A stretch of DNA of 64,000 bases from Squalus acanthias (GCA_030390025.1 CM059432.1:90026001-90090000), one strand, 5' to 3'; shown: positions 1,166 to 50,430, numbered from the stretch's first letter. Numbers and translations: made by a program. Notes: generated by a model not told the origin, from the letters alone.

Positions 1166-1875
1166 GCCGGAATTTTCTGGGGTCCGTGCGGGCGCAATCG
1201 GAGGCGGGTCGGGTGGGAAATTTGAAAAAAGTCAGAGCGGGTTGGGAACCTGCCGTCATCCCGCCACAGCGCACCTTTCCCTCGGGCGCGTTTGCCAGTG
1301 CGGCAGCGACCCGACCGGCAGAGGCGGGCGACCTAATTGAAATCATTGTAAGCTTGTTGTCAGACACTTAAGAGCCATTTTCCCCCTATATTTCAAGGGG
1401 GAAAAATTCAGTTGATTAGCGCCTCCCGTTAGCACCCTAAGAGGGCGATAACGGGGCGCAAAGCAATTAGCGCCCGAGCGTGGCAATGCTTGCGCCGCTC
1501 GCGAAATTGACCAGACATTTTGCGGCGGCGCTAAATACTACCGCCATGATCTCCTGCGCCCGCAGATCGTGATGTCAGTCGAGCGTGCAACGCCCCTGTA
1601 GCGCCCCGGACCGGATATTGAGTGGCGCCCCCTGCCTTTCCGCCTGCCGCTAGCAACGACAGGTAGAGGGGAACGTTTTGTTGCAGTCAGGAAGGAACTG
1701 GGGGAGCGCTATTTAAAGGCGGCCGCTTCCTGCCTTTTTTTGTCGGCGACATTTTTGCACCACGCATTCTGAGAGAGCGAGAGAGACTCCTGGAGAGATT
1801 CAACGCTGTGTGAAGGAGCAGCACTTTGTAGGTTCATTTTGATTCGACCTTCCTTGCATTGATTTGGAAGAGACT

Positions 1876-3055
1876 TTGGGGGCTGCACTGATTCAATGCG
1901 TCATCCTGCACCTGCAGAATCGGAGGCATCAGAGACGCAGAGAGAGAGTGGCAAACATGACCAGAGGGAGGAGGGCCAACAGGCCTCTGCGCAGGAGACC
2001 TTACCCTCCCAGGGTATTCCGGGAGCAATTCTCCTACATTCATTTGTCTGAGGAGCAGTGTTTGTGCAGGCTGCGCTTCAGCAAGGAGGTGGTCACTGAG
2101 CTCTGCCACCTGCTGCAACCAGATCTGTAGCCTCAACTCAGGACCAGGACGTCTCTGTTGGCAGTGAAGGTGACAGTGGCTCTGAATTTTTATGCCAGCG
2201 GCTCCTTTCAAGCATCTACTGGGGACATCGCCAATATCACCCAGTTCGCTGTCCATTGCTGTATCCGGGAGGTGACAAATGCCCTGTATAAAAGGAGACG
2301 CCAGTACATCTCTTTCCCCATGACCCGGGGCAAACAGCATGAACGCACATTGGGCTTTGCAAGGATAGCGGGCTTCCCCATGGTGCAGGGCACCATTGAC
2401 TGCACGCATGTGGCATTGCGGGCACCGCATGAAAATGCAGAGGTATTCCGAAACCGCAAGGGCTACCACTCCTTAAATGTACAGTTGTTCTGTGACCACA
2501 GACAGCTGATACTCGCCGTCAATGCCCGCTATCCTGGCAGCAGCCACGAAGCTTTCATCCTGCACCAGACTGGTGTGCCAGACCTTTTCCAGGCACCACA
2601 TCACCCAAGTGGATGACTCCTCGGGGACAAGGGTTATCCACTCTGCACCTGGCTGATGACACCGCTCCGTAACCCCAACACCCCTGCCGAGCTGCGGTAC
2701 AATGAGAGCCATCTCGCCACCAGGAACATCATTGAGCAGACGATCGGCGTGCTCAAGCAACAGTTCCGCTGTCTGGACCACTCAGGAGGAGCCCTGCAGT
2801 AATCTCCTGAGCGAGTCTCCCTGTTCATAGTTGTGTGCTGCATGCTTCACAACCTGGCAATCCTGAGGACCCAGCCAATGCCACCAGGGATTGATGCACC
2901 ACCTGAGGTGGAGGAGGAGGAAGAGGAGGAGGATGAGGTGGATGTCAAGCAGCAGCACCAACGTGGGAGGGAGGCGCACAATCCAACGTGGGAGGGAGGC
3001 GCACAATGTTGCCACTGCAAGGGCCGTCCGTCAACAGCTGATAAGTCGCTTCTAG
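1876..3055 (+). pseudogene. Harbinger DDE transposase (HARBI1-like, DDE_Tnp_4-type), inactivated
   Basis: One frame carries RLRFSKE, VKVTVALNFYASGSFQ, GFPMVQGTIDCTH, NRKGYHSLNVQ, YPGSSHE (usually HD), [27 protein letters not shown] and an acidic tract. Stops at 2128, 2614 and 2800; start codon probably mutated (TTG at 1876); a 25-bp duplication frameshifts the C-terminus ARAVRQQLISRF*. Confidence 0.95.
2958..3007 (+). repeat. Perfect 25-bp tandem duplication
   Basis: CCAACGTGGGAGGGAGGCGCACAAT twice (2958-2982, 2983-3007). Confidence 0.95.
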
Positions 3056-3361
3056 GCCCCTACTGAGAAGATGGCTCTGGCATGGAGAACAACATCATGG
3101 AAATCAACCCGCATCACCTATTGTCAGCCAAAGCTGGAATGATTCCAAAGGCTAAAAATGTAAATTTTGAATACAACAACTTTTTTCTTTATAAACTCTG
3201 TGTCATTTATTCAGGACAAACAATTAGAAACAAACACAACAAATCATGAATTAACAGAACTGGTTCTCACAAACTGGAGATAAACAGCAAAACAGTAAAC
3301 AAATGTAATCACATGAACCTTGACCTTTACCACAAACATTCCCACCACTTATTTAGACCTC

Positions 3362-5121
3362 CTACTGTTTGCCCTTCAAGGATGATCTCCATCCCCTGTG
3401 CACTTCCCCCCTTCCCACCCGACTGCTCCTCCGTAATGGGGCCCCAGTGGCTGCAGCAAGGCTGGTGGAAGGCTGCTGAATGTCAGATGCAGAGACTACC
3501 GATGCCCTTGAAGGACGCCCTCGACCAGCTCTGGGCCTGGAGGCCCCGGCTGCAGACTGCACCAACTCTGCATGGGCGGCAGCAGTCTGTGCTGTCTGTG
3601 TTGCAGGCAGTGGCAAGTGCAATGGGGAAGTGCCAGTGGTGGGAGCAGGAATGCAGTCATCCTGAGAGAGGACAGCACCTTCCTGCTCGACCGACACATT
3701 GGCACTCCCACGGGGCAGTACCTCAGCATCTGGAGCAATCTGCTCGAGCATAGATTGCTGGCCTGCTGCGGCACCATGAGAGCCCCAGGGCAATGTGGGT
3801 GACCCAGCGAGGATGGCAGCAGTCAGTGCTTGCGTGACATCAATCTGAGACTGCATGAGAGCAGTCTGAGACTGGATGGCAGCAGCCAGTGACTGAATTG
3901 CAGCACTAAGCCGTTGCGTTGCGTCGGCCTATGCTGCAGCGGACTGCTCCACACTCCTTGCCAGTCCATCAATGCTTTTGGGCACCCTTGCCATTGCACC
4001 CATGAGCTCAGTGTGCATGCTCAAGGCCTGGCGATTCATTTCCGCGATGACGCGCTCCTCCTCTGCATCCAGTGCAGCAGGACTCGCACTGCAGATGGCC
4101 CCCAAACTTCCCTACCCCCATGGCGTTGCTGCAGCCCACTGGGTCCAGCAGCTTTGCCCTCATCAGACTCTACCCCCCTGCTCCCCTCCAGGGAAGGCGT
4201 GGTCCCAGTGTCGGAATGGGCTCCCTCGGGAGACGCAGGCGGTGAGGCTCCGGCTTCCTCTTCCTCCTCGCCTGGGGCGTTGCTGCCACTGGTAGGTTGA
4301 GGGACAGGCTGCTCAGCTGGTGATTCACTATCTGAAAGCAGGGAGGTACAAGAGTGGCTTTAGCGTCAGGACAGGGGGACCATAAGGGAGCAAGGACTGG
4401 AGACATTTAGTAAGTTGGATTGAAAGTGTAAAAGGCTGGTGTTGTGAGGAGCAAGTGAAATGAGAGAGGAGAGAAAGCTGATGAACATACCATTGCTGTC
4501 CCCAAGGGGGTCGACCTCTCCAGTGGCCACGGCACCTATGACCCGGCTGGCAACGATCCTGTGCACGTGCGCCTCCAAATCGGTCAGGGGGTGTAGGTCA
4601 GCCGGTCCTCCACCCGTGCGTTGCTGCTGGTGCCTGTTATGAGAGAGCTTGGCCTGCAAGAAAAAGGACGGCGTCTGAGTGAATGTGCAGCCATGTGCTT
4701 GCCTGATGTGCCTCCCATAGTTGAATAGCCCTTAATGTATGCAAGGTGTGGAATGTGCGTGTGTGTTTTATGAGATGGCCATAGGTCTTGGATGAGTGTT
4801 GGGCATTTGGGGTTTTTAAACCCCCTGGGCACAGAGTGAAGATGAGATGGAGGGATGGAGAGATATTGAAAAGCAGCCACTCACCCTGACCACCCGAGTG
4901 AGGTTGTTGAACGTCTTTCGACATTGGGTGTGGGTCCTGGGCACCAGGCTCCTGGAGGAGACGTGCTGAGCCACCTCCCTCCAGAATCTTCTGTATTCGC
5001 GTGGTAATGGCCTCCTGCCACTCTGTGGGTAGAGTACTGCCCTTTGCCGCTCCACAGCACCAACCAGAGCCACCAAGGCCCGCTCGCTGAAGCGCTGAGC
5101 TCTTTCCCTGGGCGCCTCCAT
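3362..5121 (-). pseudogene. Harbinger A Myb/SANT-like (trihelix) DNA-binding protein, three exons
   Basis: Exon 1 5121-4885 MEAPRERAQRFSERALVAL..WREVA..RTHTQCRKTFNNL, donor GTGAGT. Exon 2 4653-4491 AKLSHNR..RTGGGPADL, ttgcag acceptor and GTATGT donor. Exon 3 from 4331 (tttcag): acidic, then coiled-coil-like, ending KGKQ* at 3362; one frameshift near 4085 and one internal stop. Confidence 0.88.
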
Positions 5122-5802
5122 TGTACTTTCCAACAGAATTGATGTACAGGTCTATCCAGGCTGAGATTCAAGGCTGCAATGAGCAGGGTGTGGCTGGAGA
5201 GCAAGATCAACCCTCGCCTTTAAGAACTGGCCGGCGCCAGTGTGTCTGTGTTCCATAGCTAACTGACATCACCTGAGCTTCGCCAGCGCTCTGAGGTAGC
5301 ACCTCGCTCCTCGGCGTTAGCACCTTAAGAGAGGTGTGTAGCGCCTGATTTAGCGCTCCAATCACCTCCAGGGGCGATAGAGGCCAAGTTTGCAGTCGGA
5401 GGCGATAATTAGCGCCAGGCGCTAAACTTTGTGCCCGGCCGATAATTGCGCCCCAAACGGGGCGACACTGAATTTCTCCCCCCATATTTCCCTGCATGGC
5501 CACAGGATTCACGCAGCTCAGGAACTACATCTGTCAACCTGAGGTGGGAGTTGAGTAGCCATTGCTCCAGCTGATTACTTGACAGCATCAAATGTAGTTT
5601 AAAAGCTCTCACCTCACAGCTGATCACTTTCCTCAGGCAGAAGCTGTTGCTGACTGCATTGCCAGCAAAGATTTAACTTTCTGCAGCCTGCAAGTGTTTC
5701 CAGCAAAGTCTCCATCCAGTGTCACCTCATTGGAAGAACCTCTCTCACTACTGACAGATTGCTTCTGTCAACACAACTTGACCTGCCATCTATTCCATCA
5801 GC

Positions 5803-5995
5803 ATGGGCGCCGTTTATACTGTCTCACCTTGGTCCTCAGAATCTGACCAAAATGAGACCCAAAACCAGCAGCACCAGGCACACCAACAACACCACCAACC
5901 TTCTCCACAACCATCTGATGCTGCACAGGACAGAGAGCATCAGCACCCAAGCACATTGCTGTCCTGAAAGCCTCATCATGGCCAGATTTACTTAA
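5803..5995 (+). pseudogene. Vestigial family-B transposase: N-terminal stub joined to the extreme C-terminus
   Basis: MGAVYTVSPW.. start followed within 200 bp by ..LIMARFT*. The copy-2 equivalent reads AREARDGLTMARFT*, resembling the element A transposase end. No DDE core. Confidence 0.6.
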
Positions 5996-6279
5996 CTTTA
6001 CGCTGTACACCCATATGGCTGCCACATGCTACGCCAGGTTGGCACTGCCCCACAGCAACACTATAAACCATCCCCACAATGACCAATCCATTCACTATTG
6101 GTGGAGGTACCATTATGTCTCACCATTCACTGCAACTCACTAAGCCACTTCCAAAGGTGAACACAAATTTCTCCAAGACTGGAAACTGGTGAAAATAAAG
6201 ATTTTTATGGTTGAGATCACATTAACAGAAACTTGACATCAACATTGAATAAAACACTCAAGTGGCTACCCTTGTGAAT

Positions 6280-8121
6280 CTACTTGTGTGTCATCTTTCT
6301 CTTCCGCGTGCTTCTACGAGGTGCTACCCCTGTGGCTTCAGCAGAGGTAGAGGCAGCCTGCTCACTTCCCTGCTGTGACTGCTTAGACACTCTTGGTGGA
6401 TGTCCTCTGAGTTTTGGAGCCTCTGATGGCCCCGGCAAAGTCTGCTCCTCCTACGACTGTGCAGGGGCAGACTCAGCCATCGCTGTCCGATGAGGCATCT
6501 GGGGCTCTGACTGAGGGGGTGGCAACAGGGAGAAGTGGTTTGAGAGGAGCCCACACTTCCATGTCCCCTCTCACCATAATCCCTCTCATGGGCCACCCGC
6601 ACTTCCCTGCTAGCAAGAAGCTGGAGAGCACCTTGCTGCACATCAGTGGGGCCATGAGGACCCACGTCTACGCTGACATCCCTCCTAGAGAGGAGGTCTA
6701 TAAGCTTCTGCCATCTATTCTCCATAGATAGCATGTGCTCATGTGAGTGGCATATCAGCTGCTCCATGCAGGTGGCCATCCTTTCCATGGAAGAGCCTAC
6801 AGTTGCCATCGCCTGCAACACATTAGGCCTCATGTTGGAGATGAACTCCTCCATTCTCTGAACATTTGCAGACATTGCGGTTGCAAAAACTGTCAGAGCC
6901 TCCTGCACTTCTTGCTGCACCTCCAGGATCGCCCTCTTTCTGGATGGCCCCCGAGGCTCAGCGTCTGCATGCAGCTGAGCAGAGCTGGGTGCGTCCTGCC
7001 CCCTCCTGTGAGGAGTTTCCACTGCTGTCCCTGTCTTCACCATCTGCTCTTGTTCACTTGTGAGTTGTGAGGCACCAGGTGACAACACTACTCTCGTGTG
7101 GGACCCACCAAGGTGTGCGTATCTGCGCTGGTGCTGGGTGCGCTTATGATTGGTGATTGTGTCCCCTCGGAGGCTGGAGGCTCCTCTGAGGAGTTGTCTT
7201 CCTCTTCCTCCTGTACCATGGGGGGGGCGGGGGAGCTCTTGATGGACCTGTGGGAGAGTAAAGAGATGAGTTAGATATGTCATATGAAGAATGGGTACAG
7301 ATACCATTATGCACATGATGACCAGTCAGTGGCTGATGACATCAGTCTCCATATGAGTGACTGATTTATGCCATGTAGCTGTTTGATATATAATTCTCCC
7401 TCTCTCCGTCTCCCACCTCGAGCTGCTCGGCGAATCCCAATACTTCTAATGCAGCCTCCTCTGCTGTTGTGAGGGTGGTAAATGATGGAGGGCCACCTCC
7501 ACTTCTCTCCCTCGCCCTCTTATTGTGGGCTCTGTTTTCCTGCAAGGAGGGAAAGAAGAGAAGGTTGAGTGAGAATGATGGAATGAGTGTAAGGAATGGA
7601 TGGGTTAGATCTTGAGGGAGACTATGATGGAGTTGGGTGGCAATGCTAAATGGCCTCCTTGTGTGTTGTTAGTTGGTATGATTGCATTAGGATGAGGGTG
7701 AGTGTGAGGGGTGCATAGTAAGATGGGGATGTGATAATGAAGATAGAGAGAGAGGGATGGGTGGACGTGCAAGGTATGTTGGTGTGAGTAATGATGTGCA
7801 GGAATAGGGATGAGAAGGCAGAGTGATGGGGATGTGATGGGAGGCACAGCAGGATGAATTTGAGTGTGGCTTTGTACTCAGCTTTCCTGATCTAATGAGA
7901 TAATTGAAACGTTTGCGGCACTGCACCCAGGTCCTCCTGACCACATCCCTGCTGTTGACCTCCTCTGTAATTTGGAGCCAGGCTCTTTTTGTTTCCTGGG
8001 GAGATCTCTTCCGCCCATTGGAAGGGAAGAGGACCTTACTGCGTGCTCTGACTCCCTGCACAAGCATTTGGAGGGAGTCGTCGGAGAACCTGGGTGCAGC
8101 CCTCTGCCTCTGTGCAGTCAT
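6280..8121 (-). pseudogene. Harbinger B Myb/SANT-like gene, three exons, degenerate
   Basis: Exon 1 8121-7882 [47 protein letters not shown]; donor is CTGAGT here but GTAAGT in copy 2. Exon 2 from 7539 ENRAHNKRARERSGGGPP. Exon 3 from 7247: acidic then coiled-coil-like (ORF 6324..7316), with basic tail PRRSTRKRKMTHK* after a frameshift. Confidence 0.85.
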
Positions 8122-8415
8122 GTTTCCAAGTGTTTGGAGCAATCAAAGCCTCCAATGCAGTGACTGTACACTCCTAGATGATCCTTCAAATGCAATGTGG
8201 CCATGGCTTCTTTAAATCTACCAGCTGAAAACGCATCATGGGTGACATCATCAAACCCGCACCATTCAATAGGGCCGGGTAACACGCTGGGCAGGTTTAA
8301 TAGGCCCCATTGACGCAAAGTCATTTTATGCAGCGGGATGGAAGTAGCAACCGGGTCGTGACCCACCACACCGACCACCCGCACTCGACCCGCCCAAGTA
8401 CAGAAAATTCCGACC

Positions 8416-8705
8416 TTTGTGTCCTCCTCACAGCTTACTTTCCCAACTAGCTTTGTATTGTCAGCAAACTTGGATATATTGCTCTCGGTCCCTTCATCTA
8501 AGTCACTAATATAGATTGTGAATAGCTGAGGCCCAAGCACTGATCCTTGCGGCACCCCACTAGTTATAGCCTGCCAACCAGAAAATGACCCGTTTATCCC
8601 TACTCTCTGTTTTCTGTCCATTAACCAATCCTCTATCCGTGCTAACATAATACCCCCAATCCCATGAGCCCATATCTTGCATAGCAACCTTTTATGTGGC
8701 ACCTT
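8416..8705 (-). mobile_element. CR1 copy 1, 5' part (RT core), 5'-truncated
   Basis: [59 protein letters not shown]. Colinear with 301-1165 by comparison with the uninterrupted copy near 19490. Confidence 0.93.
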
Positions 8706-13400: not shown

Positions 13401-16400
13401 TATTCTTGTGATAATAAATGTATACATCAAGGCCTTGCTGCCTTGTCAGTTTAATTGCTTCTTGTGCTCCTTAACAAGCCAATCTTAATCAGTCTGGACC
13501 ATGTTATGAATAATTTAGAGATCAGCAAACTTCACATTTAATAAGCTGTATCAGATTATTAAACTTAAGTGCACTGTTTAGAGAAAACATGCAAAACACG
13601 TTTGGCTCTTCATTAAGTTAAGGCAAAAGCAGTGAGCAAGTTACTGTAGCATTTGTGTTTCATAAGGAACAGCTGTTTTTCTTACCCATGCAGCCTATTT
13701 CTTGTGCAGTGAAGGCCACAGTACAAAGGCATAATGGGAAATTTGAGCAGCAATCAAATTATAGCTATAAAATGAAACAGCAGACAGTTTGTGGAAATAC
13801 AGTGTAGTATGAACTGTCCTTTATGACAATTTGAAACACTATTCCTACATAGCTATATATTTCTGAATTTTTAGTAAAAGATAAATGTAGCTTTAGTTTA
13901 GACAGTTCACTTTATGTTTTAATACAGACCTGTAAAGACATATAGTAAATAACTAAAATGTTAGATTTTGCAGTAACATAAAATGAGTATTAATGTATTT
14001 AAAGGAGGTTGAGGTTTGTAAATGTTTGTTTTATATCACATTATATTCTGTCAGTTCATGTTAAATAAATAATCTACCTCCTACAAAATTTTACATGCGA
14101 CACTTACCAGGAATGCTTGCCTTGCAGAAATTGATGAAATATGTTCCCTATGCAAAGTTGATATTGCAATAAAGAAAAATAGATTTATAAAATAAAAAAC
14201 TAGCATGTACATTAATTTTTGACAAGCTCCATCTTGATGGAATAGGAAAAAGGAAGGCTGTGTTTTTTTGTCACTTTATCTGAGCTGTCAAAACTAATGT
14301 TAGTTTTATAGAGCTTTTAAAACACTTTATCGTTCTACAAAACATCAGTTTCATCAGAGCTCAGAAGTGTTGAATTTTTTATATATCTAATGGCTCTACA
14401 AATGTAAATGGTCCTGTAACTGTTTTATACCTCTGCTGTTCCATTGCAATGAATATAAATCTTTTAAAAAATAGCATGAAGTTAATGATAAGCTTGTAGT
14501 TGTTTGATTTGGGACAGCTTTAAGCCACAGTAGACACACAGGCCTCCAAAATAACCACGCAGTTACCGGTTTGAAGTAGAATTTTTGGGCTGATTGCAAT
14601 GGTTTTCGGTTTCGGGGGGAAAAAAATCTACCAGTGAGCACTGTGCTATTTAACCTGTACTCCAACCTGCCGCACTCGACAGTCCAGCCTAGTTCTTTGT
14701 TCTTCCTCGGGTTAATGGAGATTGAGAAGATGGGCAGAGAAGAAGCAGTGTAATTTTCTGCTATTTAAGCTTGGCGAAATGGCACTCTTCAGGAAGCAGC
14801 AAAAGTATGAAACTGTAATAGGCATTTTAAAATGGGGAGTCCATATAGATGCTTCAGGGATTCTCAGATTTAGGCATGCATAGAATTTGGAATGAGATAA
14901 TCAGCATTGTGAAATTGAAACCTGTCTGCTGCCTGCTGCTGTTACTCTTCTCACTGCAGAATGATTTGTAACACTCATCTTCTTGAAGCAATGCAACCTT
15001 CAAGATTATCCAGCACTGTCAATAGTAATTGTGAAAGTATTTTATTACTGACAGAAATCAAGGATATTTATAACCAACAGAGATCCAGTTTCAACGTTGG
15101 GCTAGGAAAAAGCAATCTTTTCTGGAATATGCAGCTTTTCCTAATCTTTTTAACGTGGTGATCGTATGACTGTTGCCTGGGTTATTTTAAACTGAATCTG
15201 GAATGAAAACAATATCTTTTAAAAATTCACTGGAAAATTGTGAGGCTGTCAATAGGATTCTTGGACCATTCTTTCAGGTTATGAGCATTCATGATAGCAT
15301 CTTTGTTAATTAAACATGCTTTTCAGTAAGATATTTATTTCAGGTATTGAAACACAAGATTCTGTTTAAAAACTGAGAATAATCCCAATCCACAGTTTAG
15401 AAACTATCAACATGTTTTAATTCCTAGAAATGTACTCAAGTTTTTGGTTGAAATTTGAGGAAATGAATGACCAGTAACAGAAATGTTACTGTAGTTGCCT
15501 CTTAACCATAGCTTCTATCTGTCACCCAAATCCACCTCCTTCAACCAGAAAAGCTTTAATAGTTTTTGGACATGCCACTAGGTGGAGTGTCACACAAAAG
15601 GAAGGTTTCCAGGGGGTTGGGGGAAGAAAGACAACCTGATAATGTACAGCTTAACTGTTGGAATTAAACTCCTGCCAACTGATTAATGGTTCGTGATTGC
15701 AGAGCAGTCTACAGCCCAGACCTTTATTGTGTCATGGCTGTAGGACGATTCACGATGGCCCGTCTCGGCTGAGGGTGATGTTTGACGTTACATTACACAA
15801 TCCCAGCTCGATGGTGAGCAGATCGAAGCCAGAGGCAATGCACAGTGACTGGTCAGAACCAATGAGTTAGACCATGATGTGTGATATTGCATTACAGCGT
15901 CCCAGATAGAGAATGGTGTGTGACACTGTAATGTAGCATCCAGATAGAGAATGATGCATAATGTTCCATTGCAGCATCCCAGCTATAGTGTGAGTGTAGA
16001 CACAGTGTAATGGTTGAAGCACAATATTCCAGCTGGCCGATGACTTTACATGTACATTATTATATCCCAGATAGAGAATGAGCATGATGGGAAGTAGGCT
16101 ACAAGGGAAGAAAAAAACCGAGAAAAAATATCTTTAGTTGCTCTTATAAATAACATGGTGGCCGAGAAATTCAGTCTTACCGCTGGCCGTTAAGGCCAGT
16201 TTCGGGAAAAAAAAGTGGCGGCTGCCTCACTTCCGCCTGCCTCCAGCGCGGGACTCAGTGGCTGCCATTTTGGTAAGGGCTATAGCACGATGGCACCAGA
16301 AATGTAAATCAGCAGAGCATGATGACGCCGACTTGACCCCGCGGCTGCAAAGTTCGACCTTTTCGCGAAGTTTACCATTGGGTCCTAAGCACGCTCAGAA

Positions 16401-16620
16401 AAGCGTGTGTGAAGCACCCCTGCAGAGATGCTGTCAAGGCTTATATAAGGGACACACACATCTTTCAGGTAAGTTTGGATTTAAGCTTTTGGACTGGTTT
16501 TTTAATATTCTATTGAAGTAGTGGCTTGGTACAATAGATGTTAAAAGATCTTAAAGTGGTCAGGGAGTGCTGCTGGATGCTTGTAAGGCTTTGGATGGTA
16601 ATGGAAGGCCTCTGAGACGA

Positions 16621-16755
16621 CAGAAAATGCTGGAAATACTCAGCAGGTCAGGCAGCATCTTGACGTGAGACGTGAACTCTGTTTCTCTCTCCACAGATGC
16701 TGCCTGACCTGCTGAGTATTTCCAGCATTTTCTGCTTTCATTTCAGATTTCCAGC
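16621..16755. repeat. Perfect 40-bp-arm inverted repeat insert (probable Penelope-like retroelement terminal fragment)
   Basis: CAGAAAATGCTGGAAATACTCAGCAGGTCAGGCAGCATCT (16621-16660) and its exact reverse complement (16695-16734). Absent from copy C2. The Penelope label is from recall only. Confidence 0.8.
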
Positions 16756-16768
16756 ACCCGCTCACCGA

Positions 16769-17041
16769 GGGAAGAGGAAGAGGAAGAGGAAAAGGAAGAG
16801 GCAGAAGAGGAAGAGGTGGAAGAGGAAGAGGAAGAGGAGGAAGAGGCAGAAGAGGAAGAGGCAGAAGAGGAAGAGGCGGAAAAGGAAGAGGTGGAAGAGG
16901 AAGAGGCGGAAGAGGAAGAGGCAGAAGAGGAAGAGGAAGAGGCAGAAGAGGAAGAGGTGGAAGAGGAAGAGGTGGAAGAGGAAGAGGTGGAAGAGGAAGA
17001 GGCAGAAGAGGAGGAAGCAGAAGAGGAGGAAGCAGAAGGAA
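16769..17041 (+). repeat. Purine-rich (GAAGAG)n / 15-bp GYRGAAGAGGAAGAG expansion in the acidic transposase tail
   Basis: Reads EEEE(A/V) repeats; about 270 bp here versus about 55 bp in C2 (49025-49080). Confidence 0.92.
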
Positions 17042-17316
17042 GGAGGCAACCCAGACAGCCCCTTTCTGGCTGGGATGTCCGAGATCGAATCATCCACCTG
17101 CGGTACCAGTGACCACAACCCCAATTCCTCTTTCAACATTTGTCCCACACCTTACCTTCCCTCTGTTGCTGCCCATCACAGCATCCTCTTGGCCATAATA
17201 CTGAAATAAAAGCCACCACAACCAAACTTTCCAATCCAACTTTAAACATCTATCCATCCAATATGACATCAAGAAATCCACTAATCACCCTTGTAAATTC
17301 CCTGAGTGACTGTCTT

Positions 17317-17476
17317 ATAGATGCATTTAAGGGGAGGCTAGATAAGCATATGAGGGAGAAGGGAATAGAGGGTTATGCTGATAGAGTTAGATGAGGAAAG
17401 TGGAGCATAAATGCCGGCATGGACTGGTTGGGCCGAATGGCCTGTTTCTGCTGTATATCCTATGTAATCCTATGTA
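17317..17476 (+). mobile_element. 160-bp CR1 3' end inserted in Harbinger C1
   Basis: IDAFKGRLDKHMREKGIEGY and a CCTATGTAATCCTATGTA tail as in the 36931 family. GTCTT is duplicated at 17312-17316 and 17477-17481; empty site in C2. Confidence 0.9.
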
Positions 17477-17499
17477 GTCTTGTGTGTGCCTTTGCCTAT

Positions 17500-18302
17500 C
17501 CTAGTGATGTCACGTAGTGCTACCCCAGTGGCTGCAGCATGGCTGGTGGAAGGCTGCTGACTTTCAGTGGGGGACACTGCAGATGGCCTTGCAGGATGAC
17601 CTCGTGCAACTGGTGGCCGGGAATGTCAAATCGAGTGACGGTGTTTCTTCTTCATCTTCTTCTTCACTCTCTGTCTTCTTGGTCAACCACTGGCTGGATT
17701 TCTTGGGTGTCTGAAATAAGGAAGGCACAAGGGCAGGGTTGTGGTGAGGAGAGGGCGGAAAAGCAAGAAGTGCATACTTACACCATGTGCACCTTGTTAA
17801 GATATTGTGGGATGAGGGGGAATAGGATGTGAGAAGGAGGATAACGAATGAGGATACCAGTATCTTGTATCCTTTCAGCCCCGCTGCTGGCCAAGGGCTC
17901 AGCCATGCCCCTACCAAGAATGGCCAGCACCGTCTCCTCCAAGAGGGTGAGGTGAAGCTAGGAATGGGAGGTGTACCTCGTGTTTAATAGAAATTGTTGG
18001 TAGGTGAGTGATGGGAGAGGGGGCGTGCATTGAGCAGTGTGCGAGGCTAGTGGTGCAGTTGGTAGGAGGGGCTTTTGAAGATGCATTCAATGACCTTGAC
18101 CACTGGTCAGAGGTCATGAAGCTTCTTTGGGCACTGGAGCCCGGTCGTGGGGGCGACACTGGTGGCAGTGATGGCCTCAGTGATGTGGTCCCCCATCCTG
18201 GCCCGTGGGTAGAGGACCTCTCTTGCAGTGTTGATCCCCTGAACAATCCTGGAGTGCTGCATGTGAGACCCTAGGTGCCCCTTCCCTGGCTTGCTGAGCC
18301 AT
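17500..18302 (-). pseudogene. Harbinger C1 Myb/SANT-like gene remnant
   Basis: MAQQAREGAPRVS start at 18302, LQCPKKLHDL motif, and an acidic exon ESEEEDEEETPSLDLT. Confidence 0.7.
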
Positions 18303-18747
18303 TTGTATTAGTGCTGAAGCACTTTTACCATTTTTTTAGGTGCAGAAGGCAGTTCAGTTTAAGAGCTAAAGACTGCCATTTGGGAATTATTTTTAATGTT
18401 TTTTTTTCAGAAGGCAGTTGAGCTATAAGGGCTAAAAACTGCCTATTTTTAAATGATTTTTATTTTTTTCATTTTAGAAGGCAGTTCCCATTTAAGGGAC
18501 CGACACTGCATTCTAAAATGACAGCCATGCTTTAAGACAACTCTGCTCTTGCTTCAAGGCGCAACAGCCATGCTACATTGGACCTCCTGCGCTGGAAAAC
18601 CAATCTTGCACTGTAGGTTTAGTGCTGTGCTAATTTAAATTAGCAGGCAGCACCAAAATACTGTGCTATGATTTTGGCCGACCATTAACTTCATCCCGCG
18701 GTGGCCAGGTTTCTGGTCCACTGCAATTTCTAGACCTATGTGTCTTG

Positions 18748-23918: not shown

Positions 23919-24610
23919 GGGCTCGATTTTGTCATTGGGGCGGGCTGGGGTCGTGTCATCCGCTTTTCGTGTTAGCCACCCGACTCCAATTGGATGTGGG
24001 AGAATTATTCGATTTTCCCCTAATTGGGCAATTGAGTTCCAGCATGTGGGAACCCATGACTGAATTAGTTTTTTCAGTCTGAAAGTCGCCTCTGATGATG
24101 TCATCATTGCTGCTGCATTTAAGGTCTGCAAAGACTGGGAACCTTTTGGCCTTTGCTGTGAGAGGGACCTGGAGGCAAAATGAGCAGCAGGAGACCTAAG
24201 TCTGCTCCCAGAATTTTTCTTCTTCTTCTCCTCCTTCTCCTCCTCCTCCTCCTCCTCCTTCATCTCCATCATCTCCATCATCATCTCCATCACATCTCCT
24301 TTTTAATGGTGGACCTGCAGCTGATAGTCAACAATCCAAGTGTGCTACCGCCAGGTTTCACCGTCGTGTTTCAGAGGAGGCGTGCATCACGTCAGAAAAG
24401 TCTTAAAATCAGAAAGGCCTCTCAAAATGGGATTATAGAGGCAATTAAGTGGTTGTTAAGGGCCTATCCCGCCTCATGGAGACGGGATCAGAAACCACGC
24501 ATTTGGGAAAATTGCTCGGAGGCGGGGTCAGGCCCGCCCGCCATTTTTTGCAAGTTTAACACCCCACACGCCTCCATTCCCGCCTCCTCGGGCCTGGCAA
24601 AATCGAGCTC
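23919..24610. mobile_element. Harbinger MITE family D, copy 1 (692 bp)
   Basis: TIRs GGGCTCGATTTTG and CAAAATCGAGCTC; TSD CTG; near-identical to 26546-27303; internal CTT/CTC/CAT microsatellite about 24216-24296. Confidence 0.92.
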
Positions 24611-25739: not shown

Positions 25740-26055
25740 GTTGTCCAGTGAATAGTTGAGCCATACAAACCTGAAAAGTCCCAGTCTGTGCATATTTGAT
25801 TGGACTTAACTGGGGTAGTATTTTTGCCTCGACAACCCAGTGTTAGGGAGGGGGAACTTGGCGCAGGTTCCCAGCTTCAGTATTCTCTATCAACTCTGCT
25901 TAAAGTGTGTGTCTGTGGATATTTGGTGAGGACAGGATCAAGCCTGGTTGCATGCTCCAGTGGTAGAATAGCTTGCCAACACTCCCTATCCAGGCTCATA
26001 TACGAATAATGTCAGTTTCAGCCTGGTACCCATGGAACAATAGCCAGCAAGGAAT
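25740..26055 (+). mobile_element. Old tRNA-type SINE relic
   Basis: Reverse-complement similarity to 43340-43725 (TGAGGACA.GA, AATAGC.TGC, AGGGAGGGG..GGTTCC, GAGCCAT). The tRNA-derived label rests on a weak head resemblance. Confidence 0.55.
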
Positions 26056-26489
26056 CCATCTTGAACTGTATCCAGCAAAGAGACAATCTTAAACTCTATC
26101 CAGCAATGAGTCCATCTTGAACTCTATCCAGCAATGAGTCCATCTTGAACTGTACCCAGCAATGAGTCCATCTTGAACTGTACCCAGCAATGAGTCCATC
26201 TTGAACTGTACCCAGCAATGAGTCCATCTTGAACTCTATCCAGCAATGACTCCATCTTGAACTCTATCCAGCAAGGAGTCCATTTTGAACTGTACCCAGC
26301 AAAGAATCAATCTTGAAGTGTACCCAGCAATGAGTCCATCTTAAACTCTATCCAGCAATGAGTCCATCTTGAACTGTACCCAGCAATGAGTCCATCTTAA
26401 ACTTTATCCAGCAATGACTCCATCTTGAACTCTATCCAGCAAGGAGTCCATCTTGAACTGTACCCAGAAAGGAGTCCATCTTGAACTGT
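26044..26489 (+). repeat. 28-bp minisatellite, about 16 copies
   Basis: Unit CCATCTTGAACT(C/G)TA(T/C)CCAGCAATGAGT, head-to-tail, no spacers. Confidence 0.95.
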
Positions 26490-26545
26490 TATTGGTGCAG
26501 AGCAGGGCTGGCAGATAATGGTTCAAGAGAAGACACTGATGCATT

Positions 26546-27303
26546 GGGCTCGATTTTGTCATTGGGGTGGGCTGGGGTCGTGTCATCCACTTTTCGTGTT
26601 AGCCACCCGACTCCAATTGGATGTGGGAGAATTATTTGATTTTCCCCTAATTAGGCAATTGAGTTCCAGCATGTGGGAACCCATGACTGAATTAGTTTTT
26701 TCAGTCTGAAAGTCGCCTCTGGTGATGTCATCATTGCTGCTGCATTTAAGGTCTGCAAAGACTGGGAAGCGTTTGGCCTTTGCTGTGAGAGAGACCTGGA
26801 GGCAAAATGAGCAGCAGGAGACCTAAGTCTGCTCCCAGAATTTTTCACCACCACCACCACCACTACTCCAGGCTCCAAAGTTCCACAACAATGGTTATGA
26901 CTGCTAAAAGTTCCCCCAGAATGATGATTGATCAAATCTCCTTCTTACTGGTGGACCTGCAGCTGATAGTCAGCAATCCAAGTGTGCTACCGCCAGGTTT
27001 CACCGTCGTGTTTCAGAGGAGGCGTGCATCACGTCAGAAAAGTCTTAAAATCAGAAAGGCCTCTCAAAATGGGATTATAGAGGCAATTAAGTTGTTGTTA
27101 AGGGCCTTAAGGGCCTATCCCGCCTCTTGGAGGCGGGACGGAGACGGGATCAGAAACCACGCATTTCGGAAAATTGCTCAGAGGCAGGATGGAGGCGGGG
27201 TAGGCAGGATGGAGGCGGGGTTGGGCCCGCCCGCCATTTTTTGCAATTTTAACACCCCACACGCCTCCATTCCCGCCTCCTCGGGCCTGGCAAAATCGAG
27301 CCC
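26546..27303. mobile_element. Harbinger MITE family D, copy 2 (758 bp)
   Basis: Perfect 13-bp TIRs GGGCTCGATTTTG and CAAAATCGAGCCC; TSD ATT. Confidence 0.93.
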
Positions 27304-31967: not shown

Positions 31968-31969
31968 TT

Positions 31970-34157: not shown

Positions 34158-35706
34158 AGCCGAGATTTTCCCTACCTCGGCGGGTCTGGGGCGGGCGACG
34201 TCAGTGGTGGGTCCCGACCCCGCTGCTGCTGGCTCCATCCCGCTCTGGAAAATGATTTTCCGTTGATAGGGCTTGTTAAACCCGCCCAGCGTGTTTCCTG
34301 GGCCAATTAGAGGAAGCGGGTCTGGTGATGTCATTCATGACGCGTCATCAGCTGGGTTCCTTAAAGGGACCATGGCCAACTTTCTTTTAACATTTGTGCT
34401 GTCAGTGTTCTACAGCATTGAGGTGCTGCAAACACTTACAAAGACTGCACAGAGGTGCAGAGTTGCACCCATGTTCTCCTATGACACCCTCCATAATAAA
34501 ACAGCGGTGGGCAGAAGACACCTCCCCAGGAGATCAAGACAGCTGGTTGCTCATTGCAGAGGAGGGCACAAGCAGGGATGTTGTCAGGAGGACCTGGGTG
34601 CAGTGGTTCAAACCTTTCAATGATCTCATTAGATCACGAAACGTAAGTACAAAGCCACACTCAACTTCATCCTGCTGTGCCTCTCATCACATCCCCATCA
34701 CTCTGCCTTCCCTACCCTACACCTGCACATCCTTACTCACACCAACTTACCTTGCATGTCCATCCATCCCTCTCTATCTACAGCAACCCCTCACACTCAC
34801 CCTCATCCTAGTGCAATCATACCAACTAACAACACACAAGGGTAGTCACTTGGGTGTTTAGCCAATGTTCATGTAAAGCTTCTGTTAATGTGCTGTCAAA
34901 CATTGAAACCTTTATTTTCAACATTTTGCATTCTTGGACAGATTTGTGTGCACCTTTAGAAGTAGCTTAGTGAATGGTGATACATAACAGTACCCCCCGC
35001 AATGGTGGTGGGTGTGAAAGGAATGGCTTGGACATTGTAGGGATGCTTTATGGTGTTGGTGTGGGGTGGTGCCAACCTGGCGCATCATGTGGCAGCCAGG
35101 GTGTATAGCGTCAAGTAAATCTGGCCATGGTGAGGCCATCCCTGGCCTCCCGGGCAGCAATGTGCTCGGGTGCTGATGCTCTCAGTCCTGTACAGCATCA
35201 AGTGATTGCAGTGAAGCTTGGTGTTGTTGTTGGTGCTGCTGGTGTGCCTGGTGCTGCTGGTGTTGGGGCTGATCGTGGTCGGATTCTGAGGACCAAGGTG
35301 AGACAATATAAAGGGCACCCATGTTGATGGAATAGATGGCAGGTGAAGTAGAGATGACAGAAGCATTTTGTCAATGGTGAGAGATTTCTTCCAATGAGGT
35401 GAGAGTGGATGGAGAGTGGAAAGCCTGCAGAATCTCTGCCGGAAATGGACTGAGAAAGGGCTTTTGGCTGAGGAAACTGATGATCTTTCAGGTGGGAGCT
35501 TTTATTGTACATTTGAAGCTGTCAAGTAATCAGCTAGAGCAATGGCCAGTGAATTCCCACCTCAGGTTGACAGCGTGGCTCCCGTGGGCATGAAGTTAAA
35601 GTGAAAAGGTAAGTTAAAAAAGTCCCGACCCGCTGTCAAAAAAAATCAAATTTCCCACCCGACCCACCACCAATCCCACCCGCTGACTCCCCGGAAAATT
35701 CCGGCC
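34158..35706. mobile_element. Harbinger family B, copy 2 (1549 bp, inverted relative to copy 1, further deleted)
   Basis: Termini AGCCGAGATTTTCC and GGAAAATTCCGGCC; TSD TAA; Myb exon 1 remnant (SRDVVRRTWVQ..FNDLIRS) on +; 34900-35575 is the inverse of about 5530-6210. Confidence 0.92.
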
Positions 35707-41059: not shown

Positions 41060-41680
41060 TGGAGCAAGACACTATGATGGGATTCAAGAAGAAACGCAAG
41101 GCAAGTTCCTATTAGCAAATAAAATTTAAGGTTATTAAGTTCAGAAATGCATGCAGGGAAATGTGTGAGGCATATTGTATAATAAGAAATGTAGCAGTAT
41201 GGATATAAAGTTAGTTGACAGACAGGAAACAAAGTTAGGGCAAATGGGTATTGAACAGATTGAAGAAGGGTTGCAAGTGGTCTATCCCAGGGGTCAGTAC
41301 TGGGTCCACTTTTGTTCTCGGTTTAAATAAATGATTTGGACGTGTATATAGGGAACACAATAAATGATTTGGACGTGTATATAGGGAACACAATAAATGA
41401 TTTGGACGTGTATATAGGGAACACAATTTTGAAATTTGCTGACAAAACCAAAGTAGGGGGTTTGGCAAACATTGGTTACCAAAGTACAAAAAGATTTTGA
41501 CACCCTTCATACACTAAGGCAGGATGTAACCTACAAAGAATTGTGCTGCCACTATCTATGTTTGTATGATGGCAGTCTCAAATACACTGACAGAAAAACG
41601 AATTAGTGAGAAGTAAATTGATATCAAAAAGTATTTATTTATTCAAAGAGCTATAAATATTGGGAAATCTGCCAGGCAGC
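41060..41680 (+). mobile_element. Very degraded CR1 RT fragment
   Basis: [12 protein letters not shown] CCCAGGGGTCAGTACTGGGTCCAC, INDLD and KFADKTKVGG. Confidence 0.7.
41326..41427 (+). repeat. Perfect 33-bp triplication
   Basis: AATAAATGATTTGGACGTGTATATAGGGAACAC three times. Confidence 0.95.
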
Positions 41681-43339: not shown

Positions 43340-43725
43340 TCCCTCGTCTCCTGATGGTGTTGACTCAAGCTGGGATATGGTCATGGGTGACAGTTGGTTT
43401 ACGTACCTCACCCAAGTAGCTATTCTTTGTGTGAAGGCCTGCGTCTTAGCAGGCTATTTGATTGCGAGGAGATATCGCAGTCAAGCGCAGTCATGTCCTC
43501 ATTTGATATTCACTCATGGGTGTACACACACAAACACGCTTTTCAGCAGGGGTCACTGGATGATGATAAGGAGCAGGAACCCTGCTTGATTTTACCCTTC
43601 CTCACCTATGGATACTGAGGCGAATTCTGACCACCTCAGCTAATTTAGCACAGACTAGGAATCTAACTTGGGACATTCTGGTCCACATGGCTCAGCTACA
43701 CACTGGCTTTACCTGCAATCATTAG
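43340..43725 (-). mobile_element. Old tRNA-type SINE (best-preserved copy)
   Basis: Mutual similarity with the 20395 and 25740 copies. Confidence 0.6.
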
Positions 43726-46700: not shown

Positions 46701-46862
46701 ATCCTAAATCCTTGTGAAGTGATTTTTCAAGGAAGCAACCAATCACCTCTGGAGAATGGTGAGGTATTGCACAAAACCTAACTTAGCTTATTAATTAATT
46801 CTCATTAAGACTAAACAAAACAATGATTATATTGTAAAAATAAATTCACACCCTTGAATAAA

Positions 46863-48392
46863 CAGAATAGAATCATAGATGTTTACGCACAGAAGGAGGC
46901 CAGTTGGCCCATCGTGTCTGTGCCGGCCGAAAAAGTGCTATCAAGTCTGATCCCACTTTCCAGCTCTTGGTCCGTAGCATTGTAGGTTATGGCACTTCAA
47001 GTGCATATCCAAGTACTTTTTAAATGCAAGTAACCTGTACATTGAAGTCTAAATCATTGATATATACCACAAAAATCAAGGGACCTACTACTGAGCCCTG
47101 TGGAACCCCACTGGAAACAGCCTTCCAGTCACAAAAACGCCCGTCAACCATTATCCTTTGATTCCCGCCACTGAGCCAATTTTGGATCCAACTTCTCACT
47201 TTCCCTTGGATCCCATGGGCTTTTACTTTTCTGACCAGTCTGCCATGTGGGACCTTGTCAAAGGCCTTGCTAAAATCTATGTAGACTACATCAAACGTGC
47301 TACCCTCATCGAACCTCCTTGTTACCTCCTCAAAAAATTCAATCAAGTTAGTCTTTCCTTAATAAATCCACGCTAACTGTCCTTGATTAATCCGTGCCTT
47401 TCTAAATGATGGTTAATACTGTTCCTCAGAATTTTTTCCAATAATTTGCCCACCACCGAGGTTAGGCTGACTAGCCTATAATTACTCGGTCTATCCCTTT
47501 CTCCCTTTTAATCAACGGTACAACATTAGCAGTCTTCCAACACCACGCCTGTAGCCAGAGAGGATTGGAAAATGATGGCCAGAGCCGCCGCTATTTCCTC
47601 CCTTGCCTCTCTCAACAGCCTGGGATACATTTCATCCGGGCCTGGCGATTTATCGACTTTCAAAGATGCTAAACCCCTTAATATTTCCTCGCTCCCTATC
47701 GTTATCTCATCTAATATTTCACACTCCTCCTCATTAACTACAATGTCTGCTTCATATCTTTCTTTTGTGAAGAAAGACAGATTGTGTGAAGTATTCATTA
47801 AGAACCATACCCACATCTTCCTCCACACACAGGTTATCTTTTTGGTCTCTAATAGGCCCTACTCATTCCTTAGTTACCCTCTTGCTCTTTATGTATTTAT
47901 GAAACATCTTTGGGTTTTTCTTGATTATACTTGCCAGTATTTTTTCATGCCCTCCCTTTGCTTTCCTAATTTCCTTTTTAATTTCACCCCTGCACTTTCT
48001 ATACTCCTCTAGGCGTTCTGCAGTATTGAGCTCTCGGTATCTGACAAAAACTTCCCTTTTTTCCCTTATCCTGCCCTGTATGCTCCTTGACATCCAGGGG
48101 GCTCTAGATTTGGGAGTCCCACCCTTTTCCTTTGTGGGAACATATTTGCTCTGAACCCTCACTATCTCCTCCTTGAATGCCTCCCACTGCTCTGACACCA
48201 ATTTACCTTCAAGTAGCTGTTTCCAGTCCTCTTTTGCTAAATCACATTTCAGCTTAGTAAAATTGGCCTTTCCCCAATTGAGAACTTTTACTCCTGGTCT
48301 ATCTTTGTCCATTTCCATCTAACTGAATTATGATCATTACCACCAAAATGCTCTCCCACTGATACCTCTTCCACCTGCCCAGCTTCATTCCC
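46863..48392 (-). mobile_element. CR1-type LINE with internal deletions
   Basis: IDFSKAFDKVPHGRL..GVPQGSVVGP; LKVDKSPGPDEMYPRLL; VLNWGKANF; 3' UTR joined directly to RT at about 47030. Confidence 0.94.
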
Positions 48393-48431
48393 TCCACCTA
48401 GGAGGGAACAAGGAACAGTTGCACTGACAGG

Positions 48432-50430
48432 GGCTGGGAAATTGGATCAGTTTGCGCCGGCCATTAAGACCGGTTTGGAAGAAATAATGGCAGCCGCCTC
48501 GCTTCCACCCGCTTCCGGCATGGAACGCGGTGGCCACCATTTTGGGCAGGTCGGCAGCATTGCCATTGCCTGAGCTCGCTTCATATATTTAGATGAGTCA
48601 GCTTGTGACGTCAATCGGCGTGCAACACTGAATTGGCACCCAATCTGGTATTTTGGACGTCACCGCTCTTATTAACGCCCTCTCCAAAGCACACACAGCA
48701 GAACGTGCGTGCAGAATTACGACAGACCCACTGCCAACACTTCTTAAAGGGAGCAACGCAACTTTCAGGTAAGTTTAGATTTTTGCTTTTGTACTGGTTT
48801 CTTTACATTTTATTGGCATAGTGGCTTGGTGTAAGACATTTAAAAAGTTATCAAAGTGTGCAGGGAGTACTGCTGGATGTTTGCAAGGCATTTGATTTTA
48901 AAGGAAGGCCTCTGAGAACACCATTTTCTCCCAGTCCTGGGGGTTCTAGTCGCAGTCCCCCTTGGGCTGCAGCATGACATGGAGATGGAGCAGAGGCAGC
49001 AAAGAGGACAAGCTGCTCGCAGAGGGAGGAGAAGGAAGAGGAAGAAGCAGCAAAAGAAGAAGCAGAAGGGGAGGGAAGGAGTCAACCAGGAGAGCCCCTT
49101 TCTGGCCGGGATATCCGGGATCGAATCATTCGCCTGCCCATCCCCTTTCAACATTTGTCCTACACCTTACCTTCTCTCTGATACTGACCATCACAGCATC
49201 CTCTTGGCCACAATGCTGAAATAAAAGCCACCACAAAGCAAACATTCCAATCCAACCGTAACCATATATGCATCCAATATTACATCAAAAAATCAACTAA
49301 TCACCCTGTGCATTCCCTTAGTGAGTGTCTTGCGTGTGCCTTTGCCTGTCCTTCTGCTCTTACACAGTGCTACCCTAATGAGTGCAGCATGGCTGGCGGA
49401 AGGCTACTGACTTTCAGTGGGGGACACTGCAGATGGCCTTGTAGGACGACCTCGAGGAGCTGGTGGCTGAGAGTGTCAAATCGAGTGATGATGTTTCTTC
49501 CTCACTCTCCTCTCCCTCTTCTTGGTTAAACAATGTCTGGGCAGGCTGGATTTCTTGGGTGTCTGAAATGAGGAAGGCACAAGGGTAGGTTGTGGAGAGG
49601 GATGTAAAGCAAGAGATGCATTCATACACCATGTGTAGCTTGTAAATCAGAAGATATTGTGGGATGAGCGGGAAGTGCGATGTGAGAAGGAGGATAATGT
49701 ATGAGGATACCAGCATCTTGTATTCTTTCAGCCCTGCCGCTGGCCAAGGGCTCAGCCATGTCCCTGCCAGGAATGGCCAGTACCGTCTTCTCCAAGGGGG
49801 TGAGATGAAGCTAAGTGAGGTGAAGCTAGGAATGTGAGGTGTGCCCCGTGTTTGGTAGAGATGGTTGGTAGGTGAGTGATGGGATGGGTTGTGCATTGAG
49901 CAGTGTGTGAGGCTTGTGGTGCATTTGGTAGGAGATGGCTTTTGAAGATGCATTCACTGACCATGACCAGTCGTCTGAAGTCATTAAACTTTTTTGGGCA
50001 CTGGAGCCAGGTACTGGGGGGGCGACACTGCTGGCATTGACTGCCTCGGCGATCTGGTCCCACATCCTTCTTTCTGGAGGGCCTCTTGGCCCCCTTTGGG
50101 TAGAGGACCTCTCTTCCAGTGTTCACCCCCTGCACAAAGCTGGAATGCTGTGTCCGAGACCCTGGGAGCCCTTTCCCTGGCCTGTTGAGCCATTTGTATT
50201 AGTGCTGAAGCACTTTTACCATTTTTGATCAGCAGATGGCAGCTCACCTTTAAGAGGTGCAGACTGCCTTTAAGAGGAGTAAAGCTAGCCTCACTTGAGC
50301 AATGCAAACTTTGGCCACCTGATGAACGCACAGCTTGTTGATGTGCTGTCTGCGCTTTTTGAACGAGCTTGGGCATATCTCGCAACTCGGTATTTGAGCA
50401 TGTTTTTTAGCATTATCGAATTTCGAGGTC
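48432..50430. mobile_element. PIF/Harbinger family C, copy 2, non-autonomous
   Basis: Colinear with 16160-18736. Myb exon 1 on - (ATG 50193; MAQQARERAPRVSD..REVLYPKG..WDQIAEAVNA..WLQCPKKFNDF). Degenerate termini GGCTGGGAAATT and AATTTCGAGGTC. Confidence 0.82.

What the first reader, a model, noticed from the sequence alone, without database searches (positions are those of the whole stretch)
1166..50430. Two independent Harbinger lineages that lost the transposase but kept the Myb/SANT gene ('adaptor-only' elements)
Seen: both B copies join the transposase start to its last ~15 codons at the same junction (GAGCATCAGCACCC[A/G]AGCACATTGCT, near 5935-5960 and inverse near 35157-35182). Both C copies join the 5' region to the acidic tail (near 16765 and 49025). 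All four keep Myb exon 1, and B1 keeps all three exons. Known: Harbinger transposition needs the DDE transposase plus the Myb-like protein, which binds subterminal DNA and the transposase. Inference: these deletion forms spread as Myb-only elements that could supply their own end-recognition adaptor and borrow transposase in trans, a bipartite helper/parasite system.
Basis: partly seen in the sequence, partly recalled or inferred. Interest (0 to 1): 0.75.

Follow-up and report, generated by a model that had tools for sequence, protein, structure and literature searches.

The report
Transposase-less Harbingers with dead Myb genes
These are copies of two abundant families of jumping genes that lost their cutting enzyme through shared deletions and likely spread by borrowing both needed proteins from intact relatives, because in most copies examined their second (DNA-binding) gene is broken too, so this is ordinary parasitic mobile DNA.

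Summary
The deletions are real and amplified. B copies join transposase codon 47 out of frame to the last ~19 codons. Exact genome-wide matches number 2,179 for the junction and 605 for the undeleted tail. Full-length parents exist for B and C.

Of 60 junction-bearing B loci sampled, 46 share a second deletion removing Myb exons 2-3; B2 belongs to this form. Their exon 1 then decayed (20 N: 3 S changes, lost start codon, frameshifts). The C consensus carries two frameshifts inside the Myb domain and two further shared deletions.

Only B1's subfamily (4 of 60) has an intact consensus Myb frame. Its alleles mostly match autonomous copies, and its private shared variants look neutral (dN/dS 0.97 against 0.53 in autonomous copies). 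A post-hoc subset of 11 frequent variants leans synonymous. B1 itself has lost both splice donors.

MADF/Myb-only Harbingers are already published (C. inopinata, PMC13668399). This scan reached a similar verdict earlier on another piece of this genome (e1-9991115). Verdict: ordinary non-autonomous derivatives, low interest.

The parts
1166..1396 (+). B1 left arm with terminal inverted repeat; B1 sits in a CR1-like LINE
   Evidence: CR1 label from recalled sequence features
1397..5482 (+). Element A: two-gene Harbinger nested in B1. DDE transposase ~1843-3055 (+, with internal stops) and spliced Myb/SANT gene (-). Not part of the deletion lineages
   Evidence: Pfam DDE_Tnp_4 E=5.8e-13 and Myb_DNA-bind_5 E=1.9e-07
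5485..8415 (+). Rest of B1 (subfamily Jc3, junction form with three Myb exons)
5803..5995 (+). B1 transposase remnant: first 47 codons joined out of frame (5938-5944) to the last ~19 codons
6280..7247 (-). B1 Myb exon 3 (predicted), frameshifted, with stops
7395..7539 (-). B1 Myb exon 2 (predicted); last 15 bp and splice donor deleted
7882..8121 (-). B1 Myb exon 1 (Myb/SANT domain, open frame); donor GT changed to CT
   Evidence: Pfam PF13873 E=9.2e-12
34158..35706 (-). B2, TAA target duplication; subfamily J2 with the transposase junction (35156-35181) and a second shared deletion (~34835-34841) removing Myb exons 2-3
34441..34642 (+). B2 Myb exon 1 remnant: no start codon, internal deletion, C68W
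16160..18679 (+). C1: transposase-less C element. SINE-like insertion ~16619-16760, expanded acidic-tail repeat ~16770-17050, tail stop 17112, exon-3 deletion joint ~17605, Myb exon 1 remnant 18095-18302 (-)
48431..50430 (+). C2: transposase-less C element. N-terminal codons 48937-49035 joined to the acidic tail at ~49022-49038, exon-3 deletion joint ~49455, frameshifted Myb exon 1 49962-50193 (-)

Best explanation
B and C are non-autonomous internal-deletion derivatives of two Harbinger families that likely spread by borrowing both the transposase and the Myb protein from intact relatives, with their Myb DNA carried along as a decaying passenger. SHOWN: the shared junctions, the full-length parents, the high copy numbers, and the shared Myb lesions in C and in most B copies. 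INFERRED: the deletions arose at short microhomologies during gap repair; the ends kept the cis sites needed for mobilisation; shorter forms were amplified preferentially; exon 1 survives as DNA because the founding deletions happened to spare it (it lies ~300 bp from the right end), not because it is translated; and B1's subfamily has an intact consensus frame because it took its Myb haplotypes from contemporaneous autonomous copies, by descent and template switching.
For: (1) Junction matches 2,100 + 79 against 605 undeleted tails, controls 0. (2) Of 60 junction loci sampled, 46 lack exons 2-3, 5 share an exon-3 deletion, 4 keep exon 3 and 5 are unresolved. (3) After the basal J2 subfamily, exon 1 gained 20 nonsynonymous and 3 synonymous distinct changes, including M1K/R/I, W65R and C68W. 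Two subfamily consensuses (7 and 4 copies) are frameshifted and the donor is changed. (4) Family C: a 2-bp frameshift in 36 of 41 scorable copies and a second frameshift in 40 of 42 (three '22-nt' scores were regex artefacts and their printed sequences show the frameshifted form). The exon-2 acceptor deletion and exon-3 deletion are shared. (5) Selection test with positive control: shared Myb variants among 48 autonomous copies give dN/dS 0.53 (139 N/88 S, p<0.0001); variants private to 47 junction copies give 0.97 (58/20, p=0.90); J3-private variants are 8 N/0 S. (6) 19 of 20 (Jc2) and 16 of 18 (Jc3) consensus differences from the parent also occur in at least 2 autonomous copies. (7) No copy covering the whole Myb frame is open: 0 of 15 F, 0 of 7 Jc2, 0 of 5 Jc3.
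Against: (1) The Jc2 consensus has a complete 458-aa Myb frame, and Jc3 is complete apart from a hypervariable poly-C run. (2) Among junction-private variants seen in 5 or more copies, 5 are N and 6 are S against 75% N expected (read by eye; p about 0.03 by hand; threshold chosen after the fact; the variants may come from unsampled autonomous haplotypes). (3) Jc3 singleton variants give dN/dS 0.83, p=0.023. (4) Many private variants seen in only 3 copies are probably recurrent post-insertion changes, which pulls that test towards 1. (5) The same junction sits on at least three Myb haplotypes, which could reflect selection for a fresh Myb as well as chance recombination. (6) No parent exon 1 was recovered for C; its frameshifts are judged against B's Myb and a relative, L234.
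Confidence: 0.82

Rival explanations
1. Adaptor-only phase in a minority: B1-type subfamilies (Jc2/Jc3) expressed a working Myb protein that helped their own mobilisation with a borrowed transposase, as proposed for C. inopinata. Later derivatives (J3, J2) and family C dropped it and became pure parasites.
For: Intact consensus frame. 6 S against 5 N among frequent private variants, and Jc3 singleton dN/dS 0.83. The junction occurs on several Myb haplotypes. Published precedent (PMC13668399).
Against: All private shared variants pooled give dN/dS 0.97. The form is 4 of 60 sampled junction loci. Autonomous copies encoding both proteins were abundant and of the same age (4.4% against 4.2-4.3% non-CpG divergence), so a diffusible Myb was likely not limiting (inference).
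Confidence: 0.13
2. Exon 1 is kept in the J2 and C forms because it encodes a short Myb-domain-only peptide (read-through into intron 1) or holds a needed cis site.
For: All four window copies, and the subfamily consensuses, keep exon-1 DNA. The basal J2c8 consensus has an open 80-codon Myb exon with a start codon.
Against: Peptide version: loss of ATG, W65R, C68W and frameshifts in derived J2 consensuses, and two frameshifts in C. Cis version: exon 1 diverges more than the adjoining intron (7-17 of ~220 sites against 2-7 of ~215), some J2 copies lack exon 1 (L165, L181), and a MITE of family A lacks it.
Confidence: 0.04
3. The shared junctions are recurrent post-insertion deletions or local duplications, not amplified lineages.
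For: Microhomology at the breakpoints could favour recurrence. Both window copies share a rare base at the junction.
Against: 2,179 dispersed exact matches; subfamily-diagnostic substitutions linked to the junction; identical 3-bp target duplications in 22 of 40 complete B copies.
Confidence: 0.01

Closest known systems
Harbinger-1M_cIno and Harbinger-2M_cIno, MADF-only PIF/Harbinger derivatives of Caenorhabditis inopinata (Sato et al. 2026, PMC13668399; abstract, Introduction, one Results section and Discussion read)
   Same: Internal-deletion derivatives that lack the DDE gene, keep MADF/Myb DNA and amplified beyond the transposase-bearing form. Supply in trans is proposed there, and the authors call it hypothetical.
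   Different: There 14 of 19 MADF loci are intact, several are expressed, one copy jumped in the laboratory, and one intact DDE locus remains. Here no examined copy has an open Myb frame, most subfamily consensuses are disabled, copies are 4-6% diverged, and two-gene parents are abundant.
Two-protein vertebrate Harbingers such as zebrafish Harbinger3_DR (Sinzelle et al. 2008; paper not held, known only from passages citing it in PMC13668399 and PMC9179366)
   Same: DDE transposase plus spliced Myb/SANT gene, short terminal inverted repeats and 3-bp target duplication. This describes A and the parents of B and C.
   Different: The window's B and C copies are deletion derivatives.
mPing/Ping/Pong of rice (PMC9921582, passages read)
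   Same: A non-autonomous derivative moved by ORF1 (Myb-like) plus transposase supplied in trans, and more mobile than the autonomous element.
   Different: mPing is a short MITE. J2 (~1.8 kb) and C (~2.2 kb) keep long pseudogenised remnants of both genes.

Membership tests
PIF/Harbinger superfamily (parents of B and C) | DDE transposase of Harbinger type | tested here: met
   The B parent consensus has an open 411-aa frame. Full-length copies are 46-55% identical to A's transposase, which hits Pfam DDE_Tnp_4. The C parent L197 matches B's transposase at E=7e-59.
PIF/Harbinger superfamily (parents of B and C) | Second gene with a Myb/SANT (MADF-like) domain | tested here: met
   PF13873 E=9.2e-12 for B1 exon 1. 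C matches B's Myb in three frames.
PIF/Harbinger superfamily (parents of B and C) | Terminal inverted repeats and 3-bp target duplication | tested here: met
   Inverted ends in B and C consensuses; identical 3-bp flanks in 22 of 40 complete B copies, AT-rich but not strictly TWA. Not counted for C.
Non-autonomous internal-deletion derivative | Shared deletion of the transposase, ends kept, amplified as a unit | tested here: met
   for B. For C, none of 40 loci had a transposase inside the element; no genome-wide count was made for C.
Functional MADF/Myb-only element (Harbinger-1M_cIno type) | Intact Myb frame in the subfamily consensus | tested here: not met
   Not met for J2 (B2) and C (C1, C2). 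Met only for the minor Jc2/Jc3 subfamilies.
Functional MADF/Myb-only element (Harbinger-1M_cIno type) | Purifying selection on Myb after loss of the transposase | tested here: inconclusive
   Absent in J2 and J3. For Jc2/Jc3 the pooled value is 0.97, with a weak post-hoc synonymous excess in 11 frequent variants.
Functional MADF/Myb-only element (Harbinger-1M_cIno type) | Intact, expressed, spliced Myb in individual copies | tested here: inconclusive
   0 of 12 junction copies covering the whole frame are open. The read data could not decide expression.
Functional MADF/Myb-only element (Harbinger-1M_cIno type) | Mobilisation with transposase alone supplied in trans | not testable with these tools
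   Needs a cell assay.

The most novel reading that the evidence does not exclude
B1's subfamilies were a vertebrate adaptor-only Harbinger: a transposase-less lineage that kept refreshing a working Myb gene by recombining with autonomous relatives and held it under selection. It then gave rise to Myb-dead parasites, so one genome records the full path from two-gene element to adaptor-only element to pure parasite.
Probability: 0.12. Interest if true: 0.5.

Novelty: new member of a known kind. Interest (0 to 1): 0.2.

Why it matters
As it stands the finding adds two non-autonomous Harbinger families and a caution: Myb DNA in a transposase-less element does not show division of labour. Here it is mostly a passenger, which bears on how the 2026 C. 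inopinata model should be tested elsewhere. The B family is a usable natural test bed, with thousands of copies, nested subfamilies and a positive control for selection. If the minor subfamilies proved to have kept Myb under selection, it would supply the evolutionary evidence that the read sections of the nematode paper do not give. The faster evolution of the terminal arms in active lineages is a separate lead.

Tried and rejected
(1) My first junction count used the window's rare A variant and gave 79 against 605, which wrongly suggested the junction form was a minority. The G form corrected this.

(2) An apparent 1-bp frameshift in the Jc3 consensus was rejected: it lies in a poly-C run of variable length in every class, and those codons were left out.

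(3) A synonymous excess between Jc3 and J3/J2c8 first looked like selection in the transposase-less lineage. Most of those alleles occur in autonomous copies (21 of 28 and 8 of 11).

(4) One search used a fixed ts/tv weight that was too high; one search replaced it with rates measured in the element's non-coding parts. One search had exon boundaries off by one base, so its Myb labels beyond exon 1 are not used.

(5) Expression: no RNA holder listed. Contigs of runs guessed to be RNA, from two other organisms, showed the J2 deletion joint in 4 of 4 runs. No joint at the predicted intron boundaries appeared among the joints shown (15 of 48, 15 of 18). This is no evidence either way.

(6) Search for the C parent: of 12 fetched candidates among 150 hits, 1 had a transposase. 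It is truncated before exons 1-2.

(7) Rows set aside: duplicates of the same locus (L012, L020, L022; 12 more; five tandem copies). Four loci were reassigned by eye; one of them, L257, mapped to a neighbouring copy and is counted as unresolved in the 60.

(8) Literature: five searches ran. Their listings showed no paper on Myb-only Harbingers in vertebrates. Subscription papers, Repbase entries and supplements were not seen and may hold such families.

Full report
Setting. The window is G000:C8:90026001-90090000 in a 3.7-Gb genome. Earlier scan notes call the genome shark-like; I did not test that. A self-comparison shows paired B copies, paired C copies, LINE fragments and a MITE of a third family, A. 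A (1397-5482) is a two-gene Harbinger with Pfam DDE_Tnp_4 and Myb_DNA-bind_5 hits. It is nested in B1, which runs 1166-1396 plus 5485-8415.

The B junction is real. The motif occurs twice in the window and never in 100 shuffles. Of 39 other copies picked by similarity to B1's exon 1, 26 hold transposase sequence, 8 hold the junction and 5 are undetermined. The full-length copies give a 4,253-bp consensus with an open 411-aa transposase and a predicted three-exon 458-aa Myb protein. The junction joins position 691 to 1718 over a 7-bp near-repeat and is out of frame. Exact 23-base patterns give 2,100 + 79 junction matches and 605 undeleted tails, with reversed controls at 0. Capture rates were 21 of 47 and 8 of 22 in biased samples, which suggests roughly 5,000 and 1,700 copies. 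Identical 3-bp target duplications flank 22 of 40 complete copies. The deletion form therefore amplified by transposition and outnumbers its parent; that the transposase came in trans is inferred.

Most junction copies have no Myb gene. I fetched the first 40 of the 79 A-variant matches and every fifth of the first 100 listed G-variant matches (all on contig C1). A second shared deletion (2080 to ~3490), removing exons 2 and 3, is in 32 of 40 and 14 of 20. An exon-3 deletion is in 3 and 2. Exon 3 is kept in 3 and 1, and 2 and 3 are unresolved. B2 is of this J2 type: 24 of the 29 loci closest to its left arm show the same second deletion and none has a transposase. J2 splits into several subfamilies. 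The basal one has an open exon 1. The derived ones accumulated 20 nonsynonymous and 3 synonymous distinct changes, including loss of the start codon, W65R and C68W. Two consensuses (7 and 4 copies) are frameshifted and the splice donor is altered. This is decay in master lineages that went on amplifying.

Family C is Myb-dead at consensus level. None of 40 C loci (20 picked by exon 1, 20 by the junction) has a transposase inside the element. One parent, L197, found among 12 fetched candidates, carries the transposase between the joined points and the exon-3 segment that C lacks. The 2,178-bp C consensus matches B's Myb domain in three successive frames. The first frameshift is in 36 of 41 scorable copies and the second in 40 of 42 (54 sequences examined; three regex artefacts were corrected from the printed sequences). 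A deletion removes the intron-1 acceptor and the start of exon 2 relative to the related element L234, and another removes most of exon 3 out of frame. C1 belongs to a sub-branch with a shared SINE-like insertion. No parent exon 1 was recovered, so these frameshifts rest on homology to B and L234.

B1's subfamily is the one open case. Jc2 has a complete consensus Myb frame, and Jc3 (B1's group) is complete apart from an uninformative poly-C run. Three results point to inheritance, not maintenance. First, 19 of 20 and 16 of 18 consensus differences from the main parent also occur in autonomous copies, and the family is mosaic, with autonomous copies sharing blocks of alleles with each junction subfamily. 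Second, with measured neutral rates, shared variants among 48 autonomous copies give dN/dS 0.53 (p<0.0001), junction variants also found in autonomous copies give 0.45 (p=0.0004), and junction-private shared variants give 0.97 (p=0.90). Third, the classes are the same age, 4.2-4.4% non-CpG divergence, so autonomous helpers making both proteins were present (inference). Against this reading: many private variants are probably recurrent mutations that dilute the test; the 11 private variants seen in 5 or more copies split 5 N to 6 S (p about 0.03 by hand, post hoc); and Jc3 singletons give 0.83 (p=0.023). No examined copy is intact today (0 of 12 junction and 0 of 15 parent copies). B1 has lost both donors and has stops in exon 3.

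Mechanism. Shown: junctions, parents, copy numbers and lesions. Inferred: microhomology-guided deletion during gap repair; retention of cis sites (short repeated motifs stay recognisable in the subterminal arms of all subfamilies); mobilisation by both proteins in trans; preferential spread of shorter forms; and template switching that moves the junction onto different Myb haplotypes. That both proteins are needed, and that Myb binds subterminal DNA and the transposase, is taken from passages in PMC13668399 and PMC9179366. The primary paper was not held. Greater mobility of short derivatives is reported for mPing (PMC9921582, passages).

Comparison and novelty. Their elements are intact, expressed and active; these are not. 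The newt genome paper reports expanded Myb-bearing Harbingers but no Myb-only class in the passages seen (PMC5741667). Listings of five searches showed no vertebrate Myb-only report; Repbase, subscription papers and supplements were not seen. An earlier scan note on another piece of this genome reached a similar verdict (e1-9991115); it is not independent support. B and C work like ordinary non-autonomous Harbinger derivatives and meet that test. They fail the test for a functional Myb-only element, except for a minor subfamily where the result is inconclusive. Interest 0.2.

Noticed in passing
B family consensuses; window 1166-1396, 5485-5800, 8122-8415 and the B2 equivalents: Between subfamily consensuses the non-coding terminal arms change 3-5 times faster than introns and 3' UTR (43/727 against 12/759 for parent vs Jc2; 140/674 against 19/491 within J2), while private post-insertion changes are even across regions (2.0-2.8%). 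Lineage-level changes are transversion-rich (ts/tv 0.25-0.56 against 0.8-1.2 on terminal branches), and short repeated motifs persist. Selection on promoters or binding sites, end swapping, or error-prone repair in active lineages could explain it; unexplained.
   Followed up: partly
window 5937 and the matching base in 35156-35181: Both window copies carry the same rare base next to the junction (79 of 2,179 exact matches), though they belong to different subfamilies. Coincidence or local gene conversion.
   Followed up: no
window 1397-5482: Full Harbinger A nested in B1, itself inside a LINE. A-type transposases are very abundant (84,721 first-look candidates), many with long open frames.
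   Followed up: partly
window 51833-52726: A ~0.9-kb MITE derived from family A, lacking both the transposase and the Myb domain.
   Followed up: no
window 16619-16760; L096, L102, L109, L195: A SINE-like palindromic repeat sits at the same place in several C copies, so it was amplified as cargo. In L096 and L102 another ~0.8-kb element sits inside it.
   Followed up: partly
window 16770-17050; L190: The acidic-tail codons at the C junction expand as a repeat, up to ~865 bp in L190.
   Followed up: no
L146/L202 and L147/L203: Transposase-bearing copies whose left arm carries junction-type alleles: either the parent subfamily of the junction form or recombinants.
   Followed up: partly
L272-L277 (G000:C1:142.67-142.81 Mb): Six near-identical B copies 20-50 kb apart, likely inside a tandem segmental duplication.
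   Followed up: no
window 23919-24608 and 26546-27301; 26035-26490: Two copies of another repeat (85% identical) and a 28-bp-period tandem array between them.
   Followed up: no
runs X1, X2, X5, X6 laid on window 5485-8420: The J2 deletion joint (6269 to 7657) occurs in contigs of two other coded organisms, so that lineage may predate their split.
   Followed up: no
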